Origin: Escherichia coli
Lineage (GTDB): Bacteria > Pseudomonadota > Gammaproteobacteria > Enterobacterales > Enterobacteriaceae
DNA length: 64,000 bases
Assembly: GCF_003790525.1 (NCBI RefSeq)
Contig: NZ_CP033635.1
Direction: 5' to 3' (one strand)
Shown one piece after another: positions 2,646 through 17,446 of this stretch. Position 1 is the first letter of the stretch. Every line of letters starts with the position of its first letter. The position numbers and the translations under genes are program-made. The notes beneath the pieces were generated by a model. The model saw only the letters and a list, made by a program, of their open reading frames with translations, had not been told where the DNA came from and searched no databases.

Positions 2646-2664
2646 AGTGCTTTCCCCGCCTCGC
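2646..2664. other. Phage cos cohesive-end sequence (P2/186-type)
   Basis: gtgctttccccgcctcgcc is the reverse complement of GGCGAGGCGGGGAAAGCAC, which I recall as the 19-nt P2 cohesive end; position (just 3' of Q) is as expected. Confidence 0.55.
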
Positions 2665-2892
2665 CCGCCCGCTTCATGGGTCGGTTTTGATGCAATTCCA
2701 AAAGCCGTCCAAACTCTCTTAGGCTAAATGTCCAACGAGAAAATAGTTCTTTGAATGTGAATGCATTTTAATGCAGAGTTATGCCCAGCATTTTTGTACA
2801 CTTCGATGTATCAAATGCGCTGCAAACGATCAAATATGGATGTTTTATCAAGCATCCCCCAAAAGATATTTACATCATCCCATGAGGTTAAG

Positions 2893-3966
2893 ATGGATAA
2901 CAAAATCGTAGAAATTGAGACAAATAAGCTTGATTTTGACCCTAAAAACCCACGTTTCTTTCGTCTCAATGATGCCAGTAACGCTGCAACAGTCATTGAG
3001 GAAATGTTAGATGACGAAAGTGTCCACGATCTAATGCTATCAATCGGTCAGCAAGGTTACTTTCCTGGAGAACCTTTATTGGCAGTAAAAAGCAATGGAA
3101 ACTACATCGTGGTTGAGGGAAACAGACGCTTAGCTGCTGTAAAGTTGCTCAATGGAGATCTGCTTCCTCCAAAAAGAAAACTTAAAGGTGTGCAAGAAAT
3201 CATTGATGATACTACCAATAAACCTAAGAAGCTTCCCTGCATCATTTATGAAAACCGAGAGGATGTACTGAGATATATCGGTTATCGTCATATAACTGGG
3301 GTCAAAGAATGGGACTCATTATCTAAAGCCAAATACCTTAAAGAGTTATGTGATACTTTTTATTCACATGAGCCTAAAGAGATAGTATTAAAAAATCTGG
3401 CTCGTGAGATTGGGAGTAAACCACATTATGTTGCAACACTTCTCACTGCACTGAACTTATATGAAGTCGCGCATGACCATGAGTTTTTTAATTTACCCAT
3501 GAAGGCTTCTGACGTGGAATTTTCATATATAACCACAGCTTTGGGATATTCAAAAATCACAAACTGGTTAGGTCTACAGGATAAAAAGGATTTTTTAGAC
3601 CCAAATTTAAATGAAGAAAACCTTAAGCGTTTATTCTCTTGGTTTTTTGTGCCTGACCAACAAGGTAGAACCATCATCGGTGAGTCTCGAAGAATAAAAG
3701 ATATTGCAGCAGTGGTTGAGAAACCCGAAGCAATTGAAATTCTCATGAAAAGTTCAAACTTGGATGAAGCATATCTATATACCAGCGGAGAAAGAGAAGC
3801 ATTAGATAAAGCACTAAACGCAGCTAGTGTTAAATTAAGAGTAGTTTGGGATATGCTACTTAAAGCTAAAGAATTAACATTAGAGCATGAAGAGGCTGCA
3901 TCTGAAATTTTTGAGATGTCAAAAAATATTAGAAATCAGATCAGAAGCAAAAGGGAGGATGATTGA
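2893..3966 (+). CDS. ParB/Srx-like N-terminal-domain protein (hotspot cargo gene 1); ORF open from 2761, start 2893 preferred
   Basis: Motifs LDFDPKNPRFF and IVVEGNRRLAAVKL resemble the ParB PNPxQPR and GERRxRA boxes; GAGG 5 nt upstream of ATG 2893; region looks AT-rich. Confidence 0.7.
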   Translation: MDNKIVEIETNKLDFDPKNPRFFRLNDASNAATVIEEMLDDESVHDLMLSIGQQGYFPGEPLLAVKSNGNYIVVEGNRRLAAVKLLNGDLLPPKRKLKGVQEIIDDTTNKPKKLPCIIYENREDVLRYIGYRHITGVKEWDSLSKAKYLKELCDTFYSHEPKEIVLKNLAREIGSKPHYVATLLTALNLYEVAHDHEFFNLPMKASDVEFSYITTALGYSKITNWLGLQDKKDFLDPNLNEENLKRLFSWFFVPDQQGRTIIGESRRIKDIAAVVEKPEAIEILMKSSNLDEAYLYTSGEREALDKALNAASVKLRVVWDMLLKAKELTLEHEEAASEIFEMSKNIRNQIRSKREDD

Positions 3967-4996
3967 GATTATGATTACAAATCTTGATTCAATGCCTTCT
4001 AATGAGCCTTATTTATGGGCTGATTATATTGAGATATTGGCCTTAACTAATATCGACAGGTCATTCAGTCGAGGAGACCTATATAGCACACTGCAAGCTC
4101 AACCCGAAGCAGTACTAGCTGAAACAGATGAAGCAGAAGAAGAGGGCGTTTATGATGTTGATGATGAAAATGATACGCCTGTACGCAAGAGAACAAAACG
4201 AAGTGTTAGTCGAGCATATACTGACAGAAAGTGGAGCTATGCGATAGGCTTCATACGACAACGCATTGATTTATTTGGGGATAGTTACCCTTTTACTTTA
4301 TCAGAAGACAACGATACTGTAGAGTTACGTGATATATCAGAAAAGCCACTGGAACATTTAGAAAGACTATATTTAGCTTTACTAATCTGTGCTAACATAA
4401 AATATGTCAACATAATGAGCAGAAGAGAGATAACGCGCAGTTTTGAACTAATTAGTTTACCTATTTTTGAAAGCCTAATGCCTAGCGGTAGCATAATAAA
4501 AGCATGCTGGGCTTCTGGTGGTCAAGCGGCCCCTTACACTGGAACTCTATATAATAAATTTAAGAGTATTGCTTCCGATATCCGTTGCACAGCGAACTTC
4601 AAAGAACGAGATTTCAGTCGAGGAAATAGTGGTGACGGAGGCCTTGACATAATTGCCTGGCATCCAATGGGAGATCAACGAGATGCCATCCCTATTTCTT
4701 TTGTTCAGTGTGGCTGTTCTCAAGAAGAGTGGGAAGCGAAGCAGCTTGAGGCCTCACCTGCGATGCTCTACAGTAAATTCCCCGTAGCTCACCGATGGGC
4801 AACTTATTATTTCTTACCTCAAGATCTACGATGGATAGATGGTGAGTGGGCGCATAAAAATAAGTTAGGCGATGCTATTTTTGTTGATCGCCTAAGATTA
4901 ATCAATTTAACCAGAGCATCTGATAATATTGATCACAGTCAAAATATTAGCTATCTAGATATCATCCTTGATCCTTCCAGCGCGATCGCTGCTTAA
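3959..4996 (+). CDS. Hypothetical protein, possible PD-(D/E)xK-like nuclease core in C-terminal half (hotspot cargo gene 2)
   Basis: Start ATG 3959 overlaps gene 1 stop (ATGATTGA), alternative ATG 3971; GGAGG at 3954-3958; acidic then basic tract ETDEAEEEGVYDVDDENDTPVRKRTKR; GGLDIIAW ... EEWEAK fits a D...ExK spacing (weak). Confidence 0.6.
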   Translation: MIEIMITNLDSMPSNEPYLWADYIEILALTNIDRSFSRGDLYSTLQAQPEAVLAETDEAEEEGVYDVDDENDTPVRKRTKRSVSRAYTDRKWSYAIGFIRQRIDLFGDSYPFTLSEDNDTVELRDISEKPLEHLERLYLALLICANIKYVNIMSRREITRSFELISLPIFESLMPSGSIIKACWASGGQAAPYTGTLYNKFKSIASDIRCTANFKERDFSRGNSGDGGLDIIAWHPMGDQRDAIPISFVQCGCSQEEWEAKQLEASPAMLYSKFPVAHRWATYYFLPQDLRWIDGEWAHKNKLGDAIFVDRLRLINLTRASDNIDHSQNISYLDIILDPSSAIAA

Positions 4997-5931
4997 TCCC
5001 ATAAATCTGGAAGGTTTCTAGCAACCGCCTCAAACAATGGAGGCGGTACTGCATTACCTACCACAGTATATTTCATATTAATAGAAGCCCGTTCAGTTTC
5101 TGGGAAAATTAAATCCCCAAAACCTTGTAAAATAGCAGCCTCTCGATAGCTAAACCTACGAGCTGGTGCATCCGAAGTAAATTGCCACTTATCAGGTCCC
5201 AATTTTTCTAATGTTGGACTTATTGGATGTAGAGGCATATGTCTAGGATTTGCAACAATTGTTTTAGATATCTGATCCCAATCTTGCCTACGGTTTCGCG
5301 ATAGATAATACCAATGAAAATCGGCGTCATAAAACTCGCCAACAGGCCAAACAGGCATATGCCCAATAGCATCACGAATTGTGGAATATGGTGTCAAACC
5401 ATCACCATGTGTTGGTTTTGGAAATTTGTATGTAATACCGTAGTCCTTTCGTATTCCTACGATAAAGATTCGCTTCCTATCTTGGGATACCCCATAATGG
5501 GACGCATTCAGAATTTGCGAGCTTACTGTATAACCTGCTTCTTCGAAAACTTTGAATTGATCCTTTAATAAATGCTCAAAGTTACGCCTTACCATACCAG
5601 AGACATTCTCTACAATGAATGCTTTTGGCTTAATTTTACTCAAAGCACGGGCAAACTCTAAATATAGTGTATTAATCTTTCTATCTGCCTTCCTTGCCCC
5701 ACCTTGACTAAATCCTTGGCAAGGATAGCATCCGATGAGCAACTCAGCAGAAGGGAACGACTGGAGCCCTGAGATATCGCCCAAAATGTAGTCAGTTTCA
5801 GGATGGTTTTCTAAGTAAACGTCCCTTGCGTAAGGCAAAATATCATTTGCCATAAGCACATTGAAACCTGCGTTCAAAACTCCCGCATCAGAACCACCAC
5901 ATCCAGAAAAAAGTGAAACTACAGTTGGCAT
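4993..5931 (-). CDS. DNA (cytosine-5)-methyltransferase, short HaeIII/HhaI-size type (312 aa)
   Basis: Motif I FSGCGG, motif IV PCQGFS, motif VI ENV, motif VIII QDRKRIFIVG; AGGAGG-type RBS upstream of start; stop overlaps stop of gene 2 within TTAA at 4993-4996. Confidence 0.9.
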   Translation of the reverse strand: MPTVVSLFSGCGGSDAGVLNAGFNVLMANDILPYARDVYLENHPETDYILGDISGLQSFPSAELLIGCYPCQGFSQGGARKADRKINTLYLEFARALSKIKPKAFIVENVSGMVRRNFEHLLKDQFKVFEEAGYTVSSQILNASHYGVSQDRKRIFIVGIRKDYGITYKFPKPTHGDGLTPYSTIRDAIGHMPVWPVGEFYDADFHWYYLSRNRRQDWDQISKTIVANPRHMPLHPISPTLEKLGPDKWQFTSDAPARRFSYREAAILQGFGDLIFPETERASINMKYTVVGNAVPPPLFEAVARNLPDLWD

Positions 5932-6173
5932 TGACCCCTCCTAAAAACCGACCGCGTATTATAGCGAAACACCCCGTTGGGAAAAGCTAGATTTTGCCAA
6001 GTCTTGATATTCTCACGTTTTAGTAGTTGTGGCCATCTTTAACGAGAAAAAGATAAAATTGACTTCTCATTAATTTTCAATAGGTTTAATTGTAAGCTCA
6101 AACTAACGCCTCGCGACACTCGTTATTCAACCCCGCCAGCCCTGAAAACAAGTTTCACGACTGGCGGCGTTCT

Positions 6174-6392
6174 CTATCGTCTGCGTTGTGGTGGCGCAAC
6201 TCTGGACTGACCGATATGGTTAAACCGCCCGTAATTATCCCGGACTATTTCGGCACACCCGACCAGCTCATCGGGCGTCAGATTTTCGTTGACCATAATC
6301 CGCTGTAAACGCTGAACAATAGCCATCAGCTTGATATTTTTAGTTTTATGGTGCGGTATCTCGCCTGGTATTCTGTGCATTATCCAAGCCAC
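6174..6392 (-). CDS. Small hypothetical protein at cargo/replication-module boundary
   Basis: 72-aa ORF only; overlaps 3' end of ASCH gene; no recognisable motif. Confidence 0.3.
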   Translation of the reverse strand: MAWIMHRIPGEIPHHKTKNIKLMAIVQRLQRIMVNENLTPDELVGCAEIVRDNYGRFNHIGQSRVAPPQRRR

Positions 6393-6832
6393 CCGTTTTG
6401 CTGTGCACGCTCCATCTGTTCATCTGAATAGTTCCATGCTCCATCCGTGGCAACCATTGCCCCGCCAGACATCCCCGTCTCTGGTTCATACATAACAGCA
6501 AGGCCGAGCTGATGCATAATTTCATGATTAATTCTGAATACCAGGCCACGCTCACTAAGTTCTTTCCAGTTCACAATCTCATATGCGCCTGTATTAAGCA
6601 GCTCAATACTTAGCAAGACATAATCTTCCAGCCAGTCTGACAGGTCAGTAACATCTGTTATCCGGGCTTCAACATTTCGCCCCGTATACACACCCTGCAC
6701 CCATTCATACAAAATCAACGTGTCCCCGCGCTCATAATTACGGTCATTTTTCCGGAACTCTGCACGTTTCTTTCCTTCCAGCACAAGGTCGAAATATTTT
6801 GCGTGCAGCTTTACCTCGTGAATTTTTGCCAT
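6380..6832 (-). CDS. ASCH (PUA-like) domain protein at the P2 orf91 position
   Basis: N-terminal MAKIHEVKLHAKYFDLVLEGKKRAEFRKNDRNYERGDTLILYEW resembles ASCH; start ATG 6832 shares a base with the gene A stop (TAATG). Confidence 0.65.
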   Translation of the reverse strand: MAKIHEVKLHAKYFDLVLEGKKRAEFRKNDRNYERGDTLILYEWVQGVYTGRNVEARITDVTDLSDWLEDYVLLSIELLNTGAYEIVNWKELSERGLVFRINHEIMHQLGLAVMYEPETGMSGGAMVATDGAWNYSDEQMERAQQNGWLG

Positions 6833-9159
6833 TATGTCCACTCCATTACTGTTGAGAATCCCGGCCACTCATCAGCGACCGGATACGTGAATTTTTTCCC
6901 GTCATAATTTACGGTCGCGCCACGCGCCAGCGCCTCAAGCTCCCATCGCTGCGGCCTGATACCGTTCTGAGCAAGGTCAACGCGGATACGGGTAATTTGC
7001 GTTCGTTCCGACCGGGTCAGTCTGGCCGATGGCGCTATTTCATGTGGTTTTAACGGGCTTCCGTTTCTCTGCTGACGATTTGGTGTTCTCAGTTCGTGTT
7101 TTAATGCACCTCTGAGCGCCCTCACGACCTCTGGCTCATTCCATTCGATAACACCGTCATCAACCAGATTAAGCACGGCTGCGGCATGTTCATAAGGTGT
7201 GGGAGCCGGTAACGAAGTATCACTGCCGGTGAGCTTTCCACAGTTATTGACAGGACTCCGAGGCGCGGCGATGCCGCTTTTTAAAGTCAAAGGCTCAACG
7301 ACCGGAACTTTCGGCACAATGCGCCAGTCCGTCGTTCTGGTGATATGAATATGACGCGCGCCGAGATGCGGCGCGTAAATACCGACCACTCTCTCGACTT
7401 CTTCCTCGTACTCGTTAACGTCACTCGACGGGCTACGGGCAACCCTGACAGTCTGACAATCGCGCGGGACATTTGCCCCACCCTGCGCGCTGATATACAA
7501 CGCAAAATCACCACTGTCTGCGGCAGCGCGAGCAGCCTCGACGCGTTCGTCAAACTCATCAGCAATACTGACGCCGCGAGGTAATTTGCGTAGTTCACGG
7601 TAAGCCCCCATTGTCGGTAGGCCAACCGTTTTAAATTGCGGAATGCGCCACGTTGACGCCCATGCGGTAACAGCCGCGGCAGTGTCTTTCAGCGGCCTGC
7701 CGGTATCGTTATCGAGCTGACCATCCAGTGCATAGCCGTCGATGTTTTTTGAAATGTATTTCGCGATATACCCCGCAGCACCGCCCCGATTAAGGTGTTT
7801 TGCCTGAAAACGGTTTCGCGCGGCTCCTCTTTCGTCGCCATCCTCTTTGAGCGCATAGCGACGCATGATTTCGATAATCTGGTTACGCTGGCGCGAATTA
7901 CAAAAAAGCATCATATGCCAGTGCGGCGTTCCGTCGTGGTGTGGCTCGACGACACGCAAACCGTAGACCTGTAAATCATTATCCTTGAATGCCGTGCGCA
8001 TCAGGCTCCAGATACGGCAGAGATAACGCTGCGCATCCTTTGGATTAAATGCCTCATCGTTCCAGCCGTGATTAAGCTGCACGGTTTTACTTTCGCCTTT
8101 TCCTACCTGACGTGTCGGGTGATACTTTGACGGCGCGGTCAGCGTGATAAACATCCCCACATCACCCTCTGCAGCGGCGTAACGCTCAATACCGGCAATG
8201 GTGTTCATCAGCTCCATCCGGCGAATTTCAGGATTAGAAATACTGCCCATCACCTTACTGATAAGGTCGATGCGCTCGCCGGTTTCCCTGTTTTCAAGGT
8301 CACACGATTTAAGAAATTCCAGATTTGCCTGGCGGCGCGCACGCACATCACGAATGGCATGTTTACTGGCATAAGGTGAACGGTCTTTATTGACCTCCCC
8401 GACAGCAATCAGTAACGCCTCATGCCAGCGCATACGCTGGCCTTTAAGCTGTCTAATCCACCACTCATCGTTAAACAGGCGGGCAATGGCAGAATATGCC
8501 TGCCTCGTGGTCATCTGCCCTTTACGGTATTTTCTCCAGTACAGCGGGGAAATATTGAAAGCACGTGCAGCGCCAGCAACATGACCATACAGGTGAGCCT
8601 GCGCCTCATCCGTAAACAGCGATTCTTTTTCGCCATGGGCATCCACCCAGGCATCGCAGAGTTCCTCATACATCATGAAAAGCTGCGATGAGATACGGGC
8701 GGCAAACTTTTTCAGCTCCTTGTCATTCATTCCCGGCAGGCGCGCATAGTGGTCACGCTCTGCCAGAAACAGCAACGACGCGTCGGTGTTCATTTCATGG
8801 CGCTGATTCACACGCTCAATGCGCGGCCATAAACGACGCTGAAAAGTGGATGTGAGGAAATAAAACCCGTGCACCGGGCTTTTATTGCGCCGGATGTAGT
8901 CATAGCGTGAAGTAAACAGCGAGCGCAAAAAGTAAGGCAGGCGGTTAATCGTGGATAAAACACCTTGCACCTGACGCATCTCATCACGTGTAAGGGGTCT
9001 TTCGCGCCCGACGGCCTCGCGTGGCGCGTTCCATGCATAAGCACCGGTAAACATCTTACCGGTGCCTGCGGCAAATGCTGACGGAGGGACAAAACGCCCG
9101 GAGGCTTTAACGGCCATATGAGCCAAAAGCCTCTGAACAACGCCTGCTGAGTTGCTCAA
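6832..9159 (-). CDS. Rolling-circle replication initiation endonuclease, P2 gpA-like (HUH superfamily)
   Basis: HUH motif PHWHMMLF and YxxxY motif GYIAKYISK; 775 aa against 761 aa for P2 A; position in early operon. Confidence 0.85.
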   Translation of the reverse strand: MSNSAGVVQRLLAHMAVKASGRFVPPSAFAAGTGKMFTGAYAWNAPREAVGRERPLTRDEMRQVQGVLSTINRLPYFLRSLFTSRYDYIRRNKSPVHGFYFLTSTFQRRLWPRIERVNQRHEMNTDASLLFLAERDHYARLPGMNDKELKKFAARISSQLFMMYEELCDAWVDAHGEKESLFTDEAQAHLYGHVAGAARAFNISPLYWRKYRKGQMTTRQAYSAIARLFNDEWWIRQLKGQRMRWHEALLIAVGEVNKDRSPYASKHAIRDVRARRQANLEFLKSCDLENRETGERIDLISKVMGSISNPEIRRMELMNTIAGIERYAAAEGDVGMFITLTAPSKYHPTRQVGKGESKTVQLNHGWNDEAFNPKDAQRYLCRIWSLMRTAFKDNDLQVYGLRVVEPHHDGTPHWHMMLFCNSRQRNQIIEIMRRYALKEDGDERGAARNRFQAKHLNRGGAAGYIAKYISKNIDGYALDGQLDNDTGRPLKDTAAAVTAWASTWRIPQFKTVGLPTMGAYRELRKLPRGVSIADEFDERVEAARAAADSGDFALYISAQGGANVPRDCQTVRVARSPSSDVNEYEEEVERVVGIYAPHLGARHIHITRTTDWRIVPKVPVVEPLTLKSGIAAPRSPVNNCGKLTGSDTSLPAPTPYEHAAAVLNLVDDGVIEWNEPEVVRALRGALKHELRTPNRQQRNGSPLKPHEIAPSARLTRSERTQITRIRVDLAQNGIRPQRWELEALARGATVNYDGKKFTYPVADEWPGFSTVMEWT

Positions 9160-10887: not shown

Positions 10888-11135
10888 GCATCACGCTGTT
10901 CAACTGGTCGGTTATAAAACGCCTCTCGTACAGCGCGATTAAACTCTGGAATGAAAACCCACTTCTCACCGACACGAGCGTTCGGCTTACTTGGATCACG
11001 AAGCTCAATAACTGGCAACTTATTCTCTTTTACCATCTTGACTACAGCCGTTTCTGGCTTACCAAGTAACTCTGCAAACTTAACCGTATGTACCGCATCA
11101 ATCGGGTACTGAATCACATAGTCATTGACTTCCAT
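10863..11135 (-). CDS. Cox-like excisionase / early-promoter regulator
   Basis: 90 aa against 91 aa for P2 Cox; first gene of early operon, divergent from C-int. Confidence 0.6.
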   Translation of the reverse strand: MEVNDYVIQYPIDAVHTVKFAELLGKPETAVVKMVKENKLPVIELRDPSKPNARVGEKWVFIPEFNRAVREAFYNRPVEQRDAWLLWMGL

Positions 11136-11287
11136 TGATTAGCCCTTTTTGCTTTCGTGTTACCCTTATTAGATCCAGTCCCTTCTAGGTCGCACCTGTC
11201 CTTTCTAGGGACTGGCTAACACACTCAAAAGGTCACCAATACACAACCTTTTGACGGGAATATAAGTCACCAATAGGTTACTGTCAA

Positions 11288-11581
11288 ATGCAGACATTCG
11301 AAAAACTGAAAGCGATTAGGAAAGCAGAAGGCTTAACACAGGCGAAATTCAGCGAAATTAGCGGGATAGCTCTAGGAACAGTCAAAAATTACGAAAGTGG
11401 GCATAAAGACCCTGGTCTCAGCATCGTTATGCGAGTCACAAATACGCCTTTATTTAAAAAATATACGCTCTGGTTAATGACTGGTGATACGTCACCACAA
11501 GCTGGTCAGATCGCGCCGGCTCTCGCACACATTGGGCAAAAACCAACAGAATCAGACCACTCCGAAAAACAGACTGGTTAA
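11288..11581 (+). CDS. Immunity repressor, P2 C-like (HTH)
   Basis: 97 aa; HTH-like segment LTQAKFSEISGIALGTVKNYESG; motif QAGQIAPALAH resembles my recollection of P2 C; upstream of int on same strand. Confidence 0.7.
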   Translation: MQTFEKLKAIRKAEGLTQAKFSEISGIALGTVKNYESGHKDPGLSIVMRVTNTPLFKKYTLWLMTGDTSPQAGQIAPALAHIGQKPTESDHSEKQTG

Positions 11582-11650
11582 CACTCTATAAACATTACAT
11601 TTTCACCATTTGTTACCAAGATGGTGAATACAGCGTCAGAGGGCTTTCTT

Positions 11651-12631
11651 ATGTCAATTAAGAAGCTCGATGATGGACGCTATGAAGTGGACATTAGACC
11701 TCGCGGTCGCGACGGAAAACGCATCCGCAGGAAATTTGAAAGAAAAGCTGAGGCTGTAGCATTTGAGCGATACACAATCGCCTACGCCAGCCAGAAAGAA
11801 TGGGCAGGTCAGCGAGCAGATCGCAGAACTTTGAGTGAGTTGCTGAACATCTGGTGGAAATATCACGGGCAAAACCACGAGCATGGAACAAAAGAGTTTA
11901 ATCATCTGCTCAAAACCATCAGCGGCATAGGTGATATACCAGTGAGCCGGATGAGCAAAAGAGCTTTGATGGATTATCGTTCCATGCGACTACGTGATGG
12001 TATCAGTGCCGCAACGATAAACCGTGACATGTACCGATTATCCGGCATGTTCACAAAATTAATTCAATTGGATGAATTTTCCGGGCAACACCCAATTCAC
12101 GGACTGCCGCCACTGGCGGAGGCCAACCCTGAAATGACGTTCCTGGAAAAAGCAGAAATCGAAAAACTGTTAAATGTTTTGGATGGTGATGACTTACTTG
12201 TCGCACTTTTATGTCTGAGCACTGGAGGAAGATGGACGGAAGTTGCCACGCTAAAACCAGCACAGATTACAAATTGCAGGGTTACCTTCCTGAAAACCAA
12301 AAACGGTAAAAAGCGAACCGTGCCGATTTCTGAGGAACTGGAGAAAAAAGTTAAAGAGGAGGCCAGCGCTAAATTATTCAAAGTTGATTATGAGAAGTTT
12401 TGCGGGATTTTACGCAGAGTGAAGCCAGATATACCACCCAATCAGGCAACCCACATCCTGCGGCATACATTCGCAAGCCATTTCATGATGAATGGGGGCA
12501 ATATAATCGCACTGCAACAGATTCTGGGACATGCGAGCATTCAGCAGACGATGGCCTATGCGCACCTTGCGCCTGACTACCTGCAAAATGCCGTCGCGCT
12601 GAATCCTCTAAAAGGCGGAGTGACGTTATAA
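11651..12631 (+). CDS. Tyrosine integrase, P2 Int-like (ORF open from 11621)
   Basis: C-terminal HILRHTFASHFMMNGGNIIALQQILGHASIQQTMAYAHL tyrosine-recombinase signature; N-terminus MSIKKLDDGRYEVDIRP resembles P2 Int. Confidence 0.9.
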   Translation: MSIKKLDDGRYEVDIRPRGRDGKRIRRKFERKAEAVAFERYTIAYASQKEWAGQRADRRTLSELLNIWWKYHGQNHEHGTKEFNHLLKTISGIGDIPVSRMSKRALMDYRSMRLRDGISAATINRDMYRLSGMFTKLIQLDEFSGQHPIHGLPPLAEANPEMTFLEKAEIEKLLNVLDGDDLLVALLCLSTGGRWTEVATLKPAQITNCRVTFLKTKNGKKRTVPISEELEKKVKEEASAKLFKVDYEKFCGILRRVKPDIPPNQATHILRHTFASHFMMNGGNIIALQQILGHASIQQTMAYAHLAPDYLQNAVALNPLKGGVTL

Positions 12632-12749
12632 ATTTCCCTTCTGAGTGTCCACATAGTGTCCACACTCTCAGAACTTTGTAGCCCTTCCAGTCCCTTATAG
12701 GTTTTCTTAAGTTACTGTTTTCTTACGGAAACCGATGTAAGTGATTGAT

Positions 12750-12777
12750 AAAAAAAACCCCCACATCATGTGGGGGA
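12750..12777 (-). terminator. Rho-independent terminator of cpxP
   Basis: cccccaca-tcatg-tggggg hairpin with A-run on plus strand (T-run on minus) just 3' of cpxP. Confidence 0.5.
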
Positions 12778-12816
12778 AGACAGGGATGGTGTCTATGGCA
12801 AGGAAAACAGGGTTTA

Positions 12817-13317
12817 CTACTGGGAACGTGAGTTGCTACTACTCAATAGCTTCAACGATGAACTTTTTTGCCATTGCGTCACGTCGCGCAACTGCTCCAT
12901 TCGTTGTTGATGTTTCTCGTTTAAAACCGCTTGCTGCTCCGGCGTTAACAGGCGATACATTTGGTTGCGGACTTTTGCCATCTCAACCTGACGAGCAATT
13001 TGCTCATTCGCCATTTTTTCTGCCTGTGCGCGCACAGCGTTTTCATCAAAATTTTCTGCGGTGACAAGGCGATGCATTGTCTCCAGTTCGCTAACATTAA
13101 CAGGAGGCTGTTCGTGCCGGGCCTGTTGCATAAGATCTCGCATCTGCTGACGCTGATGTTCGGTTAAACTTATGCCGTCGAACATATGGCTCTGCGTACT
13201 GCGCTGCGTAAGTTCTTCACCCGGATGCCAGTTATCGCCTGAACCGACTTCAGCAGCGTGGCTTAATGAACTGACTGCCAGCGTTGAGGCCATGACGGCA
13301 GCGGTAACTATGCGCAT
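12817..13317 (-). CDS. cpxP: Periplasmic Cpx-pathway inhibitor/adaptor CpxP
   Basis: Protein [21 protein letters not shown] ... matches CpxP; divergent from cpxRA. Confidence 0.9.
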
Positions 13318-13396
13318 CATTTGCTCCCAAAATCTTTCTGTCGCGATTCAACGATAGAGAGTTTACGATTCAGGCTGCAAACATGCGTCAGGGGGT

Positions 13397-13411
13397 GTAA
13401 AACAACGTAAA
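13397..13411. promoter_or_regulatory. CpxR-P binding box (GTAAA-N5-GTAAA) in cpxP/cpxR divergent promoter region
   Basis: Exact gtaaa-acaac-gtaaa in the intergenic region. Confidence 0.55.
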
Positions 13412-13466
13412 GTCATGGATTAGCGACGTCTGATGACGTAATTTCTGCCTCGGAGGTATTTAAACA

Positions 13467-14165
13467 ATGAATAAAATCCTGTTAGTTGATGATGACCGAG
13501 AGCTGACTTCCCTATTAAAGGAGCTGCTCGAGATGGAAGGCTTCAACGTGATTGTTGCCCACGATGGGGAACAGGCGCTTGATCTTCTGGACGACAGCAT
13601 TGATTTACTTTTGCTTGATGTAATGATGCCGAAGAAAAATGGTATCGACACATTAAAAGCACTTCGCCAGACACACCAGACGCCTGTCATTATGTTGACG
13701 GCGCGCGGCAGTGAACTTGATCGCGTTCTCGGCCTTGAGCTGGGCGCAGATGACTATCTCCCGAAACCGTTTAATGATCGTGAGCTGGTGGCACGTATTC
13801 GCGCGATCCTGCGCCGTTCGCACTGGAGCGAGCAACAGCAAAACAACGACAACGGTTCACCGACACTGGAAGTTGATGCCTTAGTGCTGAATCCAGGCCG
13901 TCAGGAAGCCAGCTTCGACGGGCAAACGCTGGAGTTAACCGGCACTGAGTTTACCCTGCTCTATTTGCTGGCACAGCATCTGGGTCAGGTGGTTTCCCGT
14001 GAGCATTTAAGCCAGGAAGTGCTGGGCAAACGCCTGACGCCTTTCGACCGCGCTATTGATATGCACATTTCCAACCTGCGTCGTAAACTGCCGGATCGTA
14101 AAGATGGTCATCCGTGGTTTAAAACCTTGCGTGGTCGCGGCTATCTGATGGTTTCTGCTTCATGA
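13467..14165 (+). CDS. cpxR: Response regulator CpxR (OmpR family)
   Basis: 232 aa, receiver plus winged-helix; MNKILLVDDDRELT ... Confidence 0.95.
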   Translation: MNKILLVDDDRELTSLLKELLEMEGFNVIVAHDGEQALDLLDDSIDLLLLDVMMPKKNGIDTLKALRQTHQTPVIMLTARGSELDRVLGLELGADDYLPKPFNDRELVARIRAILRRSHWSEQQQNNDNGSPTLEVDALVLNPGRQEASFDGQTLELTGTEFTLLYLLAQHLGQVVSREHLSQEVLGKRLTPFDRAIDMHISNLRRKLPDRKDGHPWFKTLRGRGYLMVSAS

Positions 14166-15535
14166 TAGGCAGCTTAACCGCGCGCATCTTCGCCATCTTC
14201 TGGCTGACGCTGGCGCTGGTGTTGATGTTGGTTTTGATGTTACCCAAGCTCGATTCACGCCAGATGACCGAGCTTCTGGATAGCGAACAGCGTCAGGGTC
14301 TGATGATTGAGCAGCATGTCGAAGCGGAGCTGGCGAACGATCCGCCCAACGATTTAATGTGGTGGCGGCGTCTGTTCCGGGCGATTGATAAGTGGGCACC
14401 GCCAGGACAGCGTTTGTTATTGGTGACCACCGAAGGCCGCGTGATCGGCGCTGAACGCAGCGAAATGCAGATCATTCGTAACTTTATTGGTCAGGCCGAT
14501 AACGCCGATCATCCGCAGAAGAAAAAGTATGGCCGCGTGGAACTGGTCGGTCCGTTCTCCGTGCGTGATGGCGAAGATAATTACCAACTTTATCTGATTC
14601 GTCCGGCCAGCAGTTCTCAATCCGATTTCATTAACTTACTGTTTGACCGCCCGCTATTACTGCTGATTGTCACCATGTTGGTCAGTACGCCGCTGCTGTT
14701 GTGGTTGGCCTGGAGTCTGGCAAAACCGGCGCGTAAGCTGAAAAACGCTGCCGATGAAGTTGCCCAGGGAAACTTACGCCAGCACCCGGAACTTGAAGCG
14801 GGGCCACAGGAATTCCTTGCCGCTGGTGCCAGTTTTAACCAGATGGTCACCGCGCTGGAGCGCATGATGACCTCTCAGCAGCGTCTGCTTTCTGATATCT
14901 CTCACGAGCTGCGCACCCCGCTGACGCGTCTGCAACTGGGTACGGCGTTACTGCGCCGTCGTAGCGGTGAAAGCAAAGAACTGGAGCGTATTGAAACCGA
15001 AGCGCAACGTCTGGACAGCATGATTAACGACCTGTTGGTGATGTCACGTAATCAGCAGAAAAACGCACTGGTTAGCGAGACCATCAAAGCCAATCAGTTG
15101 TGGAGTGAAGTGCTGGATAACGCGGCGTTCGAAGCCGAGCAAATGGGCAAGTCGTTGACAGTTAACTTCCCGCCTGGGCCGTGGCCGCTGTACGGCAATC
15201 CGAACGCCCTGGAAAGTGCGCTGGAAAACATTGTTCGTAATGCCCTGCGTTATTCCCATACGAAGATTGAAGTGGGCTTTGCGGTAGATAAAGACGGTAT
15301 CACCATTACGGTGGACGACGATGGTCCTGGTGTTAGCCCGGAAGATCGCGAACAGATTTTCCGTCCGTTCTATCGTACCGATGAAGCACGCGATCGTGAA
15401 TCTGGCGGTACAGGTTTGGGGCTGGCGATTGTTGAAACCGCCATCCAGCAGCACCGTGGCTGGGTTAAAGCGGAAGACAGTCCGCTTGGCGGTTTACGGC
15501 TGGTGATTTGGTTGCCGCTGTATAAGCGGAGTTAA
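14162..15535 (+). CDS. cpxA: Sensor histidine kinase CpxA
   Basis: 457 aa, H-box SHELRTPLTR, overlapping start with cpxR. Confidence 0.95.
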   Translation: MIGSLTARIFAIFWLTLALVLMLVLMLPKLDSRQMTELLDSEQRQGLMIEQHVEAELANDPPNDLMWWRRLFRAIDKWAPPGQRLLLVTTEGRVIGAERSEMQIIRNFIGQADNADHPQKKKYGRVELVGPFSVRDGEDNYQLYLIRPASSSQSDFINLLFDRPLLLLIVTMLVSTPLLLWLAWSLAKPARKLKNAADEVAQGNLRQHPELEAGPQEFLAAGASFNQMVTALERMMTSQQRLLSDISHELRTPLTRLQLGTALLRRRSGESKELERIETEAQRLDSMINDLLVMSRNQQKNALVSETIKANQLWSEVLDNAAFEAEQMGKSLTVNFPPGPWPLYGNPNALESALENIVRNALRYSHTKIEVGFAVDKDGITITVDDDGPGVSPEDREQIFRPFYRTDEARDRESGGTGLGLAIVETAIQQHRGWVKAEDSPLGGLRLVIWLPLYKRS

Positions 15536-15540
15536 ACTCC

Positions 15541-15640
15541 GCATTGTAGGCAGGATAAGGCGTTTACGCCGCATCCGGCATTTGAGCAGGATGCCTGATG
15601 CGACGCTGATAGCGTCTTATCAGGCCTACACTCCGGGGGT
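15541..15640. repeat. REP/BIME palindromic elements
   Basis: gcctgatgcgacgctg ... cgtcttatcaggcctac type REP units between cpxA and yiiM. Confidence 0.6.
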
Positions 15641-16314
15641 TATTTTCCCCACAACCGGCGGGAAAAATCTTCGATCTTGCCGCTCAGTCGGCGCTTTTGC
15701 ATCGTCCGCGTCCAGCTTTTCGATAACCCGGCGGCGGAGAGTAAACGGTGATACTGATCGTCATCAAACGGCATATGCCATGCGATGGCGGCAGCCTCCT
15801 GCACGGTCACATCACTGACACGGGAAACCAACTCCAGTGGCGCATCAGCAGATACCAACCCTGGTGCAATTACGCTATACAACCACCCCACTTTACCCGT
15901 GTTTTGCATCAACTGCGCTATGTCGCTGATATCAAAATGGTAATTGAGTTTATAGCAAGGCGAGCGCGGCTGGCTGACCTGAATTAATGCCTCTCCCCAG
16001 CGGAAAATATCGCCCATATAAACATTACTTTCCGTCAGACCGTCGGTTGAGAGATTTTCACCAAACGCAGGCGCAACAAACAACTCCGCCTGTTCCGGAA
16101 ATTCCCGCGCCCAGTAGAGATAGTGCTCACGAGGATAATGACAAAGCGCTCTGTCTGGCCCGCCGTGAACCATTTTCTCCGCCTGCTCGTCACCTTCCAG
16201 CCCCAGCTCCGTCAGCATCAACTCACCATCAACCTGGATTTTGGCAATTGCGCTGGGTTTGCCTTCGGGATAAGCCTGAATCTTGCCTGTGTATACATCA
16301 ACCGGATATCGCAT
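15640..16314 (-). CDS. yiiM: MOSC-domain protein YiiM
   Basis: Synteny; start set at MRYPVDVYTG to give the 224-aa K-12 length. Confidence 0.85.
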   Translation of the reverse strand: MRYPVDVYTGKIQAYPEGKPSAIAKIQVDGELMLTELGLEGDEQAEKMVHGGPDRALCHYPREHYLYWAREFPEQAELFVAPAFGENLSTDGLTESNVYMGDIFRWGEALIQVSQPRSPCYKLNYHFDISDIAQLMQNTGKVGWLYSVIAPGLVSADAPLELVSRVSDVTVQEAAAIAWHMPFDDDQYHRLLSAAGLSKSWTRTMQKRRLSGKIEDFSRRLWGK

Positions 16315-16462
16315 CTGTTCCCTCTCCACGAGAAATTTCCCCATTAGACCATATTTATTTTATGTCAGGCGTGCTGTTTTCGCGGTATGTATCCAGGCAG
16401 GAGCTCAATAGCAAACCGGACGAACGTTAGTTCATCCGGCTGTGGGGATTAAGGAAGCAGGT

Positions 16463-17446
16463 TTATTTCACCGTACCTAAAATTTCGATTTTCGCCGCTC
16501 TGGCTTTGACTTTACGTGACCAGATAGAGGTAAGAATTGGCACCAGAATCGAAGTCACAATGACCGCCGTCGCTACCAGCGAAGTTGCTGCCGGAGCCAT
16601 CGGTTTAAACGCAGGCACCATTTCTGCAATCAGCACAGGTGTCGCTACCGCGGCCCCTGCGGAACTGGAAGCGGCAATTCCGGCAGTGCCATCGCCACCG
16701 CCAATCAATTTATCAGCGATAATCAACGGAATACCGGTCACGATAATTACTGCCACACCCAACAGGATCCCCAGCAAACCTGTCTGGGCAATTACAGTCA
16801 AATCAATGGTATTGCCCAGCGCGAAGGCAAAGAATGGAATCAGCGTCTGCACCGCTTTGCTGAAAAATTCTCGTAATTCAGGGTCAAGGTTCCCAAGGGC
16901 AAAGCCCACCAGGAACGGTAATACTGCGCCGACGAAAACATGCGGTTCAAACGAGGCAATCCCGGCAGTGCCCAGAATAATCATCGTCATGAGCGGCCCG
17001 GACTCCAATGACATCAACACAAATGCCCCAGCTTCTTCTTTTGTGCCGTACTGCTGCATGATGGAAGCGTAAAGTCCGCCGTTGGTCATATCCATCGCCG
17101 CCACCAGCGCCAGCGTTGAAAGTCCGGCAAAGAATCCAACTTCAACACCATGTTCCGGAATAATGCGCGAGGCAATCGCCGCAACCACCCACGCGACGGC
17201 AATTTTTGTTACCACCAGCGTGCCGGATTTACGCAATACCGTTCCCGTCGCGCTTAATTTTATTGACGCCCCCATGCAAAAAAACCACACCGCCAGAATG
17301 GGCACCGTACCGGTAATCATCCCGTTGGTGAATGATCCAAAATATTTCCCCGCCCCCGGCGAGAAGGTGTGGCACAGTGCGCCAAGGAATAGCGGGACGA
17401 GCATCATCCCCCCCGGGATTTTCTCAATCGAGCGTTTTATCTGCAT
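16463..17446 (-). CDS. kdgT: 2-keto-3-deoxygluconate permease KdgT
   Basis: Polytopic membrane protein; start at [13 protein letters not shown] (327 aa). Confidence 0.9.

What the first reader, a model, noticed from the sequence alone, without database searches (positions are those of the whole stretch)
2665..6173. AT-rich three-gene cargo in the P2 tin/old-position hotspot: candidate uncharacterised defence or R-M-like module
The block sits between the cos match (2646-2664) and the orf91/A replication module, which is where P2 carries tin and old and where P2-like prophages are known to carry variable anti-phage cargo. Its three genes (ParB/Srx-like protein, coupled partner, convergent short C5-MTase) look lower in GC than the flanking phage genes. 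I cannot match the trio to any named system from memory.
Basis: partly seen in the sequence, partly recalled or inferred. Interest (0 to 1): 0.85.

Follow-up and report, generated by a model that had tools for sequence, protein, structure and literature searches.

The report
Prophage restriction-modification-like trio with ParB-fold subunit
The AT-rich block next to the cos site of this P2-like (WΦ-type) prophage is a real three-gene cassette that looks like an unusual restriction-modification system (DNA cytosine methylase plus a two-part nuclease with a ParB-like subunit). It has already been catalogued and cloned by others, who listed it without reported anti-phage activity, and its mechanism is unknown.

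Summary
Three tightly packed genes lie at 2893-5931: a ParB/Srx-fold protein, a partner gene starting 4 nt after it, and a convergent C5-methylase. GC is 35-45% against 51-60% in the flanking phage genes. The block sits between an exact P2 cos site and orf92/orf91/A.

It is not new as an object. It is gp98/gp96/mth of phage WΦ, is 100% identical in 103 complete E. coli genomes, and appears in Rousset et al. 2022 as "DNA_methylase + hypothetical + ParBc". They cloned it as pFR107 "RM-like" and list it among tested systems that were not validated against eight phages in MG1655.

What I add:
- The partner has no Pfam, PADLOC or NCBIfam family, but folds as a PD-(D/E)xK restriction nuclease with a conserved D…Q…K core.
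- ParB-like gene and partner are adjacent wherever both fall within the contig, in 47 species-level genomes across many phyla.
- 33 of those loci carry a C5-methylase, usually the same orthologue and sometimes with Vsr. Seven sit beside dnd phosphorothioation genes. Three sit beside other methylases.

Best reading: a restriction-modification-type module whose restriction half is a nucleotide-gated ParB-like subunit plus a nuclease. It is a relative in theme, not a member, of PD-λ-5. This is a new variant of a known kind, of moderate interest, and function is unproven.

The parts
2646..2664 (.). P2-type cos site (19-nt cohesive end), left boundary of the cargo
   Evidence: Exact sequence gtgctttccccgcctcgcc. 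Linear WΦ and P2-type phage records end or begin at window 2666.
2665..2892 (+). Leader and presumed promoter region of the ParB-like/nuclease operon; Shine-Dalgarno GAGG a few nt before the ATG at 2893
   Evidence: Sequence. The consensus scan found no convincing sigma-70 promoter. IS2 is inserted in this interval in E. coli strain E2.
2893..3966 (+). ParB/Srx-fold protein (357 aa; WΦ gp98): N-terminal nucleotide-binding ParB-like domain plus a long helical C-terminal domain
3971..4996 (+). Partner protein (341 aa; WΦ gp96): predicted PD-(D/E)xK-fold nuclease of an unnamed family
4993..5931 (-). C5 DNA cytosine methyltransferase (312 aa; WΦ mth), M.HaeIII-like
   Evidence: PF00145 5.5e-61. 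TIGR00675 at 185.6 bits, above its cut-off of 100.65. Best solved relative is M.HaeIII, 1.6e-48 over the full length including the target-recognition domain.
5932..6173 (-). 5' region of the methylase gene: AGGAGG (5942-5937) 5 nt before the ATG, and a perfect TATAAT (5963-5958)
   Evidence: Read directly from the sequence. The promoter is inferred, and the consensus scan did not call it.
6174..6392 (-). orf92 (WΦ gp92), small phage protein of unknown function between the methylase and orf91; travels with the methylase side of the hotspot; probably not part of the system
   Evidence: PHROG 11386 at 2.3e-38, unknown function. Annotated as gp92 or hypothetical protein. A similar small ORF lies at this position in related prophages.

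Best explanation
The three genes form a restriction-modification-type self/non-self module carried as prophage cargo.

The HaeIII-like C5-methylase marks the DNA of the lysogen and the prophage. The target is possibly GGCC; this is inferred only.

The two tightly packed upstream genes encode the restriction half. One is a ParB/Srx-fold subunit with an intact nucleotide-binding pocket and a long helical domain. The other is a PD-(D/E)xK nuclease subunit.

By analogy with ParB/KorB CTP-gated clamps, and with the ParB-like (DUF262) NTPase domains of GmrSD, BrxU and SspE, I infer that the ParB-like subunit binds and hydrolyses a nucleotide to load on or scan DNA. It would license the nuclease on DNA that lacks the cognate modification. 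The methylase then acts as antidote, and the cassette also works as an addiction module that stabilises the prophage.

Shown: gene anatomy, folds, conserved motifs, and conserved linkage to modification genes.

Inferred: physical complex, nucleotide dependence, target sequence, and any restriction activity.
For: - Anatomy: the pair is packed with a 4-nt gap, and the convergent methylase overlaps by 4 bp.
- Folds: ParB/Srx and restriction-endonuclease-like.
- Both proteins keep family-wide invariant motifs, consistent with active sites: EGNRR, DxxNPR; DGGxD…Q…K.
- In 47 loci from one-genome-per-species contigs, spanning Proteobacteria, Campylobacterota, Bacteroidota, Acidobacteriota, Chloroflexota, Planctomycetota and Negativicutes, the ParB-like gene and partner are adjacent wherever both fall within the contig.
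- 33 of the 47 have a C5-methylase, and it is directly adjacent in 32, in convergent or co-directional order.
- In most of these the methylase is the same orthologue (60-88% identity, recognition domain 65-89%), even where the partner has dropped to 26-35%.
- Vsr, the m5C mismatch-repair nuclease, accompanies the methylase in L002, L003, L014, L031, L033, L047 and L061.
- A small HTH_3 gene, of the controller-protein type, precedes the methylase in L062.
- Non-phage chromosomal contexts exist: Methylomonas, Ramlibacter, and beside SymE/RhuM.
- In distant branches the C5-methylase is replaced by other modification modules: dndA/B/C/D in L046 and L049-L053, L056; a Dam-family methylase in L054/L055; an SPPY methylase-like gene in L058.
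- Three natural disruptions spare the methylase: IS5 in the partner gene twice, and IS2 upstream of the ParB gene once.
- Precedent: PD-λ-5, described as 'ParB/HEPN, methyltransferase', is a validated broad defence.
Against: - The exact trio, cloned with native promoters on a pSC101 plasmid in MG1655, appears only among Rousset et al.'s non-validated systems. The panel was λ, T4, P1, 186, T7, CLB_P2, LF82_P8 and AL505_P2. A constitutively active type II enzyme with a 4-bp site should have restricted λ and P1.
- E. coli W, the natural WΦ host, is described as restriction-minus from its genome.
- The canonical lysine of the (D/E)xK triad is glycine here (QCG). Activity would need the conserved K257 as a relocated lysine.
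- Profile comparison with an Mrr-type domain aligned only the GDGGID motif, at 7.5% probability.
- In phage vB_EcoM-12474III a 97.8%-identical methylase sits beside a pair only 32% and 25% identical. Either the whole family shares one target, or the pair does not read sequence itself.
- No promoter was detected upstream of the pair.
Confidence: 0.5

Rival explanations
1. Two unrelated cargos lie side by side. One is an orphan phage methylase, serving anti-restriction or epigenetic roles and read through from the early A-orf91-orf92 operon. The other is a separate two-gene ParB-like/nuclease defence, either abortive-infection or modification-dependent type IV-like, that does not use the methylase.
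For: - The methylase is on the same strand as A, orf91 and orf92, directly downstream of them.
- The methylase stays 91-98% identical while the pair is swapped for a 25-32%-identical one in the 12474 phages.
- No restriction phenotype was reported for the cloned trio.
- Some AFDB relatives of the partner are labelled type IV Mrr.
Against: - The methylase is adjacent in 32 of the 33 loci that have one, across phyla, in several gene orders and outside prophages. The same methylase lineage is co-inherited with the pair.
- A type IV enzyme that attacks m5C would not be stably linked to an m5C methylase and Vsr.
- In distant branches the methylase is replaced by dnd or other methylases rather than simply absent.
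Confidence: 0.15
2. A modification-sensing system of the SspE/Dnd kind. The ParB-like/nuclease complex needs the host's own mark (m5C here, phosphorothioate in the dnd-linked relatives) as a positive signal or docking site. It is switched on only during infection, so it would not behave as a classical restriction barrier.
For: - Seven distant homologue pairs sit beside dndBCD(A) clusters.
- The ParB-like NTPase plus nuclease logic parallels SspE, described in the abstract of PMC13251355 listed.
- This would account for the absence of a reported phenotype on a small panel.
Against: - There is no sequence membership in the SspE, GmrSD or DndB families.
- Two dnd-linked loci also carry their own dnd restriction genes (dnd_restrict_1, DptH), so there the pair may just be a neighbour in a defence island.
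Confidence: 0.15
3. Not defence at all. The ParB-like protein serves prophage maintenance, partition or gene regulation (as ParB, KorB or IbrB do), and the partner is an accessory factor.
For: The ParB/KorB fold is the best structural match. Rousset et al. note partition-like cargo in this hotspot, but that is the StbA/Plasmid_stab_B cassette.
Against: - No ParA or other partition ATPase is present, and no repeats resembling a centromere were found.
- The TIGR00180 ParB partition model scores 29.9 bits, below its 58.45 cut-off.
- The partner has a nuclease fold.
- The pair is consistently linked to DNA-modification genes.
Confidence: 0.05
4. A decayed or silent relic in E. coli. The cassette was once an R-M system, but in WΦ-type prophages the restriction half is no longer active or expressed.
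For: No activity was reported for the clone. W is regarded as restriction-minus. The triad lysine is replaced. IS hits occur in or before the pair.
Against: - The locus is 100% identical in about 100 complete genomes, with intact reading frames.
- All family-wide invariant residues are retained in the window copy.
- The QCG/QCA form with the downstream W..K is the norm across the family, not a local lesion.
Confidence: 0.1

Closest known systems
PD-λ-5 (Vassallo et al. 2022; PADLOC PD-Lambda-5_A/B)
   Same: Prophage-borne compact module pairing a ParB-N-like protein with a DNA methyltransferase. The authors describe it as a compacted RM+Abi system. The N-terminal ~150 residues of the window protein match PD-Lambda-5_A profiles at up to 3e-24.
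   Different: PD-λ-5 has two genes and its A protein is a ParB-HEPN fusion, which predicts an RNase effector. Here the match stops at about profile position 160 of 440-500. The C-terminus is a different helical domain, and the effector is a separate PD-(D/E)xK nuclease with no PADLOC hit. PD-λ-5 is validated; this trio is not.
GmrSD / BrxU / SspE-type enzymes (DUF262 ParB-like NTPase + DUF1524 HNH nuclease)
   Same: The same logic: a ParB/Srx-fold nucleotide-binding module coupled to a DNA nuclease, within systems that discriminate DNA by its modification. The distant relatives here are likewise linked to phosphorothioation genes. The family architectures are from my own knowledge.
   Different: Those are single polypeptides with a DGQQR motif and an HNH-type nuclease. 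Here there are two polypeptides, the motif is the classical ParB-like EGNRR, and the nuclease is PD-(D/E)xK. There is no Pfam or NCBIfam hit to those families. GmrSD attacks modified DNA, whereas this cassette carries its own methylase.
Multi-subunit, NTP-dependent type II-like R-M systems with C5-methylases (e.g. CglI/NgoAVII R+N proteins, BsuMI, LlaJI)
   Same: A C5-methylase plus a restriction activity split over two or more proteins, one of them nucleotide-dependent. This comparison is from my own knowledge.
   Different: Their NTPase subunits are SF2-helicase-like or McrB-like AAA+ proteins, and their nucleases are PLD or McrC-type. None uses a ParB/Srx fold. No sequence relationship was detected here.
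Phage WΦ gp98-gp96-mth, also listed as Rousset et al. 2022 'RM-like' pFR107
   Same: The identical object: 99.8% DNA identity to WΦ and identical protein sequences in Table S2B.
   Different: Nothing differs. That work gave it a label and tested it in a plaque assay, but offered no fold assignment for gp96, no comparative genomics and no mechanism.
Canonical ParB of ParABS partition systems, KorB and Noc
   Same: The N-terminal fold and the GxxRxxA-type arginine motif.
   Different: No ParA partner, no parS-like repeats, a different C-terminal domain, and a score below the curated ParB cut-off.

Membership tests
Restriction-modification system (type II-like) | A DNA methyltransferase with complete catalytic motifs | tested here: met
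   PF00145 5.5e-61 over residues 3-307. TIGR00675 at 185.6 bits against a 100.65 cut-off. Full-length alignment to M.HaeIII.
Restriction-modification system (type II-like) | Adjacent gene or genes encoding an endonuclease | tested here: met
Restriction-modification system (type II-like) | Evolutionarily conserved linkage of the R and M genes | tested here: met
   33 of 47 species-level loci carry a C5-methylase, adjacent in 32. The same methylase lineage is co-inherited with the pair. Other modification modules take its place in distant branches.
Restriction-modification system (type II-like) | Cleavage of unmodified DNA that is blocked by the cognate methylation, and restriction of unmodified phage | not testable with these tools
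   The only experiment on record is pFR107 in MG1655 with eight phages. It is listed among the non-validated systems. The host was McrBC+/Mrr+, while the natural host W lacks both.
PD-λ-5 | A protein that is a ParB-N domain fused to a HEPN domain | tested here: not met
   Only profile positions ~1-160 of 440-500 are matched, by residues 45-195 of the ORF. One search gives the composition as 'ParB/HEPN, methyltransferase'. No HEPN hit in Pfam.
PD-λ-5 | Two-gene architecture with a methyltransferase as the second gene | tested here: not met
   There are three genes here, including an extra nuclease gene that has no PADLOC model.
PADLOC candidate PDC-M38 | Full-length match to PDC-M38A (715-position profile) | tested here: inconclusive
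   9.2e-25, but only profile positions 58-342 are covered. No paper in the library holds the name. The other components of the candidate system could not be inspected.
ParABS partition ParB | Score above the curated ParB/RepB/Spo0J threshold, with a ParA partner and centromere repeats | tested here: not met
   TIGR00180 scores 29.9 bits against a 58.45 cut-off. No ParA-like ORF. No repeat array.
Mrr-type (type IV) restriction endonuclease | Mrr_cat domain with a D…QxK catalytic motif | tested here: not met
   No Pfam hit even at E<=10. hhalign against an Mrr-like ORF aligns only 13 columns (GDGGID), at 7.5% probability. The motif is QCG, not QxK. The resemblance is fold and motif only.
GmrSD/BrxU/SspE (DUF262+DUF1524) | DUF262 (DGQQR) and DUF1524 (HNH-like) domains | tested here: not met
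   No such Pfam or NCBIfam hits for either protein or for the dnd-linked homologues. The motif is EGNRR.
Druantia (DruM-containing types) | A DruM methylase together with DruE and other Dru genes | tested here: not met
   The methylase matches the DruM2|DruM model at 1e-110, because both are C5-methylases. No large helicase gene is present in the block.
P2 Q/cos-A hotspot cargo | Location between portal gene Q/cos and replication gene A in a P2-like prophage, with atypical composition | tested here: met
   The arrangement is listed in Rousset Table S5A.

The most novel reading that the evidence does not exclude
The ParB-like/nuclease pair is a previously unrecognised, widespread class of portable restriction module: more than 1,500 clusters at 50% identity, and no Pfam family for the nuclease. 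In it a ParB/Srx-fold nucleotide switch, perhaps a CTPase, gates a PD-(D/E)xK nuclease. The module can be plugged into chemically different self-marks: m5C, m6A or m4C, and phosphorothioate. If so, it would be the first R-M enzyme built on the ParB CTP-switch fold. It is also a candidate for the long-unmapped basis of the λ restriction in E. coli W reported in the 1967 study in which the C(WΦ) lysogen was made.
Probability: 0.3. Interest if true: 0.75.

Novelty: new variant of a known kind. Interest (0 to 1): 0.5.

Why it matters
If the trio is functional, it would add a new architecture to restriction-modification. The ParB/Srx nucleotide-switch fold is best known from chromosome segregation. 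Here it would gate a restriction nuclease, in a module that evolution has coupled to at least three kinds of DNA modification.

It would also give a function to a large unnamed protein family, and to cargo present in about 2% of complete E. coli genomes (103 of 5,426). That includes ST410-type clinical strains and the industrial strain W.

Practically, an active m5C methylase and nuclease in these lysogens would affect transformation, phage therapy host range and methylome interpretation.

If the published negative plaque result holds under better conditions, the cassette is instead a cautionary example. A gene set can have perfect R-M-like synteny and still give no classical restriction.

Tried and rejected
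- **Named-system search.** PADLOC, NCBIfam, PHROGs and Pfam were run on all three proteins. Only domain-level hits came back, and no system-level match.
- **PDB sequence search with the partner profile.** Nothing, even at E<=10.
- **Partner as an Mrr_cat member.** Rejected as membership. hhalign aligned only the GDGGID motif, at 7.5% probability.
- **Partition system.** Rejected: no ParA, no repeats, and a score below the ParB cut-off.
- **Fused ParB-nuclease proteins.** None among the best 150 of 1,519 representative hits; all are stand-alone proteins of ~300-370 aa.
- **Promoter and terminator scan, and repeat search of the block.** Nothing above shuffled expectation, and no meaningful repeats.
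- **Literature.** No paper was found that describes this ParB+nuclease+C5-methylase trio mechanistically. The SNIPE (PD-λ-1) preprint mentions ParB only as a fluorescent reporter. The Pectobacteriaceae Tn-seq paper concerns other R-M systems. The Dnd reappraisal paper lists many dnd-linked nucleases, but a term search found no mention of this pair.
- **Papers not held.** Kerszman et al. 1967, Liu & Haggård-Ljungquist 1999, Odegrip et al. 2006 and Christie & Calendar 2016 could not be read. What the 1967 paper says about WΦ and λ restriction is therefore unverified.
- **McrBC/Mrr status of the hosts.** I did not test whether the 103 E. coli hosts lack McrBC or Mrr. The search tool lists too few rows to intersect the gene sets.


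Full report

Yes. Between an exact P2-type cos site (gtgctttccccgcctcgcc, 2646-2664) and the orf92/orf91/A replication block lie three ORFs:
- a ParB-like gene, ORF 2761-3966, with the homologue-supported start at 2893;
- a partner gene, ORF 3887-4996;
- a convergent C5-methylase, 4993-5931 on the minus strand.

The partner's N-terminus conserved among homologues (MITNLD…) starts at 3971, 4 nt after the ParB stop. RefSeq uses the ATG at 3959, which overlaps the ParB gene by 8 nt. Partner and methylase overlap by 4 bp at their 3' ends.

GC falls to 0.35-0.45 across 2800-6200, against 0.51-0.60 in the terminase/portal genes and 0.49-0.57 in gene A. The linear genomes of WΦ and a P2-type phage start or end at window 2666, which independently places cos.

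The prophage sits beside cpxR/cpxA, the WΦ attachment region.

**2. It is already on record.**

- The block is 99.8% identical to phage WΦ, where the genes are gp98, gp96 and mth.
- It is 100% identical in 103 of 5,426 complete E. coli genomes.
- Rousset et al. 2022 (PMC9122126) list the arrangement "DNA_methylase + hypothetical + ParBc" in their census of the P2 Q-A hotspot.
- They cloned exactly these three proteins from E. coli W as pFR107, named "RM-like".
- pFR107 appears in Table S2B ("additional tested systems"), not in Table S2A (validated systems).

The assay used native promoters on a low-copy pSC101 vector in E. coli K-12 MG1655. The phages were λ, T4, P1, 186cIts, CLB_P2, LF82_P8, AL505_P2 and T7. 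The same paper notes that one PARIS homologue was silent until it was induced, and that the small panel underestimates activity.

**3. What the proteins are.**

*Methylase.* A complete C5-methylase: PF00145 at 5.5e-61 and TIGR00675 above its cut-off. The closest solved structure is M.HaeIII (GGCC), at 1.6e-48, aligned end to end including the target-recognition domain. GGCC specificity is a lead, not a result.

*ParB-like protein.*
- Pfam barely sees it (ParB_N, 0.067).
- PHROG 3694 matches the full length.
- PADLOC PD-Lambda-5_A profiles match only its first ~150 residues, and the candidate PDC-M38A matches partially.
- The AF2 model (pLDDT 86.6) hits KorB, sulfiredoxin, PadC, pNOB8 ParB-N, SerK, SbnI and Spo0J.
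- DxxNPR, EGNRRL (the ParB box II arginine motif) and GxxHxxGxxxW are invariant even among 24-36%-identical relatives. An intact nucleotide pocket is therefore likely.
- The C-terminal ~200 residues are helical, with no informative match.

*Partner.*
- It has no Pfam, NCBIfam, PADLOC or PDB-sequence hit.
- It models confidently (pLDDT 91).
- Some AFDB relatives are auto-named "Restriction endonuclease" or "type IV Mrr domain".
- Conserved across the family are F158/E159, D222-G-G-x-D226, Q246 and K257, plus an N-terminal aDxxEL, YPF and a C-terminal DRxR.
- The usual QxK lysine is glycine or alanine in most members, which instead keep an invariant W..K eight residues on. The one lineage with QCK lacks that exact spacing. 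This suggests a relocated lysine, but it is inference.
- A profile comparison with an Mrr-type ORF aligned only the GDGGID motif, so I do not file the protein under Mrr.

**4. Comparative genomics.**

This is the main new evidence.

The partner family is large: 1,519 clusters at 50% identity at E<=1e-3, all stand-alone proteins of ~300-370 aa.

A scan of one genome per species returned 47 loci from many phyla. In every locus where the contig allows it, the ParB-like gene lies immediately upstream. The tally is as follows:

| Neighbouring modification genes | Loci |
|---|---|
| C5-methylase (directly adjacent in 32; mostly convergent, co-directional in four) | 33 |
| dndB/C/D(/A) phosphorothioation genes (L046, L049-L053, L056) | 7 |
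| Dam-family methylase plus a second ParB-like gene (L054, L055) | 2 |
| SPPY methylase-like gene (L058) | 1 |
| Truncated or uninformative | 4 |

Further points from these loci:
- In most C5-methylase loci the methylase is the same orthologue as in the window (60-88% identity, recognition domain 65-89%), even where the partner is only 26-35% identical. This is an old, stable association with the fast-R/slow-M pattern typical of R-M systems.
- Vsr accompanies the methylase in several loci.
- One locus has a small HTH_3 gene ahead of the methylase.
- One lies beside SymE/RhuM in an enterobacterial chromosome.
- Methylomonas and Ramlibacter carry the trio outside prophages.
- Two of the dnd-linked loci also carry dnd restriction genes (dnd_restrict_1, DptH).

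Within P2-like phages the pair is exchanged as a unit. vB_EcoM-12474III has a 97.8%-identical methylase next to a pair only 32% and 25% identical.

Three E. coli genomes carry IS insertions: two in the partner gene, one just upstream of the ParB gene, and none in the methylase. This is anecdotal, but it is the direction expected for an R-M toxin/antidote pair.

**5. Most likely mechanism.**

I take the cassette to be an R-M-type module.
- The methylase marks self DNA.
- The ParB-like subunit is a nucleotide-gated DNA-binding or scanning subunit.
- The partner is the nuclease that acts on DNA lacking the mark.

The shown parts are the anatomy, the folds, the motifs and the linkage to modification genes. 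The complex, the nucleotide, the target sequence and any cleavage are inferred.

There are two analogies. The first is ParB/KorB CTP switches, which give the structural match. The second is the ParB-like DUF262 NTPase domains fused to nucleases in GmrSD, BrxU and SspE; those architectures are from my own knowledge, with the SspE abstract listed. PD-λ-5, described as "ParB/HEPN, methyltransferase", is a validated precedent for a ParB-N protein working with a methylase. Notably, it had to be assayed in a strain deleted for the mrr region.

**6. Why confidence is only about 0.5.**

- The published plaque result is negative. A constitutive enzyme with a 4-bp site should have hit λ and P1.
- E. coli W is regarded as restriction-minus, although that statement is genome-based.

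Caveats on the negative result:
- MG1655 has McrBC and Mrr, whereas W lacks hsdMRS, mcrBC and mrr. From my own knowledge, GGm5CC DNA is a McrBC substrate. A clone in MG1655 could therefore survive only with low methylase activity.
- Expression from native signals was not checked.
- I could not find a convincing promoter for the pair.

The remaining probability goes to four rivals:
- two independent cargos, namely an orphan methylase plus a separate ParB/nuclease system;
- an SspE-like system that uses the self-mark as a positive signal and fires only on infection;
- a silent relic;
- a non-defence ParB role.

**7. Comparison with known systems, and novelty.**

The trio is not a member of PD-λ-5, since it has no HEPN domain and an extra nuclease gene. 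It is also not a member of GmrSD/SspE, Mrr, ParABS or Druantia; the membership table gives the tests.

It works most like an R-M system with a split, probably nucleotide-dependent restriction enzyme. That makes it a new variant of a known kind.

It is not a new discovery as a locus. What is new here is the fold assignment for gp96, the family-wide conserved sites, and the finding that the pair is a widespread cassette linked to m5C, other methylases and phosphorothioation.

**8. An unverified historical lead.**

[quoted passage not shown] I could not obtain the paper. If that restriction maps to the prophage, this trio is an obvious candidate, which would sit oddly with the pFR107 result on λ.

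**Verdict.** The cassette is an already catalogued, functionally unproven R-M-like module with an unusual ParB-fold/nuclease restriction half. Interest is 0.5.

Noticed in passing
L011 (phage vB_EcoM-12474III) 1953-4989, compared with window 2893-5931: The same hotspot carries a methylase 97.8% identical to the window's, but a ParB-like/partner pair only 32% and 25% identical. The restriction half is swapped as a unit next to an unchanged methylase.
   Followed up: partly
L049, L050, L056, L052, L046, L051, L053 (pair at about 4.7-7.0 kb of each locus): Distant homologues of the ParB-like/partner pair lie beside dndA/B/C/D phosphorothioation genes. L049 and L050 also have dnd restriction genes (dnd_restrict_1, DptH). 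I found no description of this pair in the Dnd literature I could search.
   Followed up: partly
L063 and L065 (IS5 inside the partner gene); L064 (IS2 between cos and the ParB-like gene): Three E. coli genomes have IS insertions that disrupt or uncouple the putative restriction genes, while the methylase stays intact. In these genomes the portal gene is also annotated as truncated, so the prophage is a remnant.
   Followed up: partly
L054/L055 2707-6867 (Bacteroidales MAGs): A four-gene variant: a second, different ParB-like protein (422 aa), a Dam-family methylase, the ParB-like protein and the partner. The partner here has the canonical QCK motif instead of QCG.
   Followed up: no
L059 3897-7682; L062 2655-6029: The trio also occurs in an enterobacterial chromosome next to SymE toxin and RhuM genes. 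In another genome a 66-aa HTH_3 gene lies directly upstream of the methylase, as a controller protein would in an R-M system.
   Followed up: no
window 6380-6868 (-): The orf91 homologue is 162 aa. It combines a DUF3850/ASCH-like N-terminal part (PHROG 986, 'RNA-binding protein') with an extra C-terminal segment (PHROG 3954). WΦ annotates only a 93-aa orf91 here, so this position is itself variable.
   Followed up: no
window 6174-6392 (-): orf92 (WΦ gp92; PHROG 11386, unknown function) lies between the methylase and orf91, at intermediate GC. A small ORF occupies the same position in related prophages. Its role, and whether it belongs to the cargo or to the backbone, is unknown.
   Followed up: partly
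window 11000-17000: The prophage integrase abuts cpxR/cpxA, yiiM and kdgT, the WΦ attachment region (cpxP-fieF). This stretch is 100% identical to E. coli SMS-3-5.
   Followed up: partly
window 2761-2892 (+): The mechanical ORF of the ParB-like gene extends 44 codons upstream of the start supported by homologues and RefSeq. No homologue shares the extension, so it is probably not translated.
   Followed up: yes
literature: The C(WΦ) lysogen is credited to a 1967 paper on restriction of phage λ in E. coli W. Whether WΦ was shown to cause that restriction could not be checked, and it may bear directly on this cassette.
   Followed up: partly
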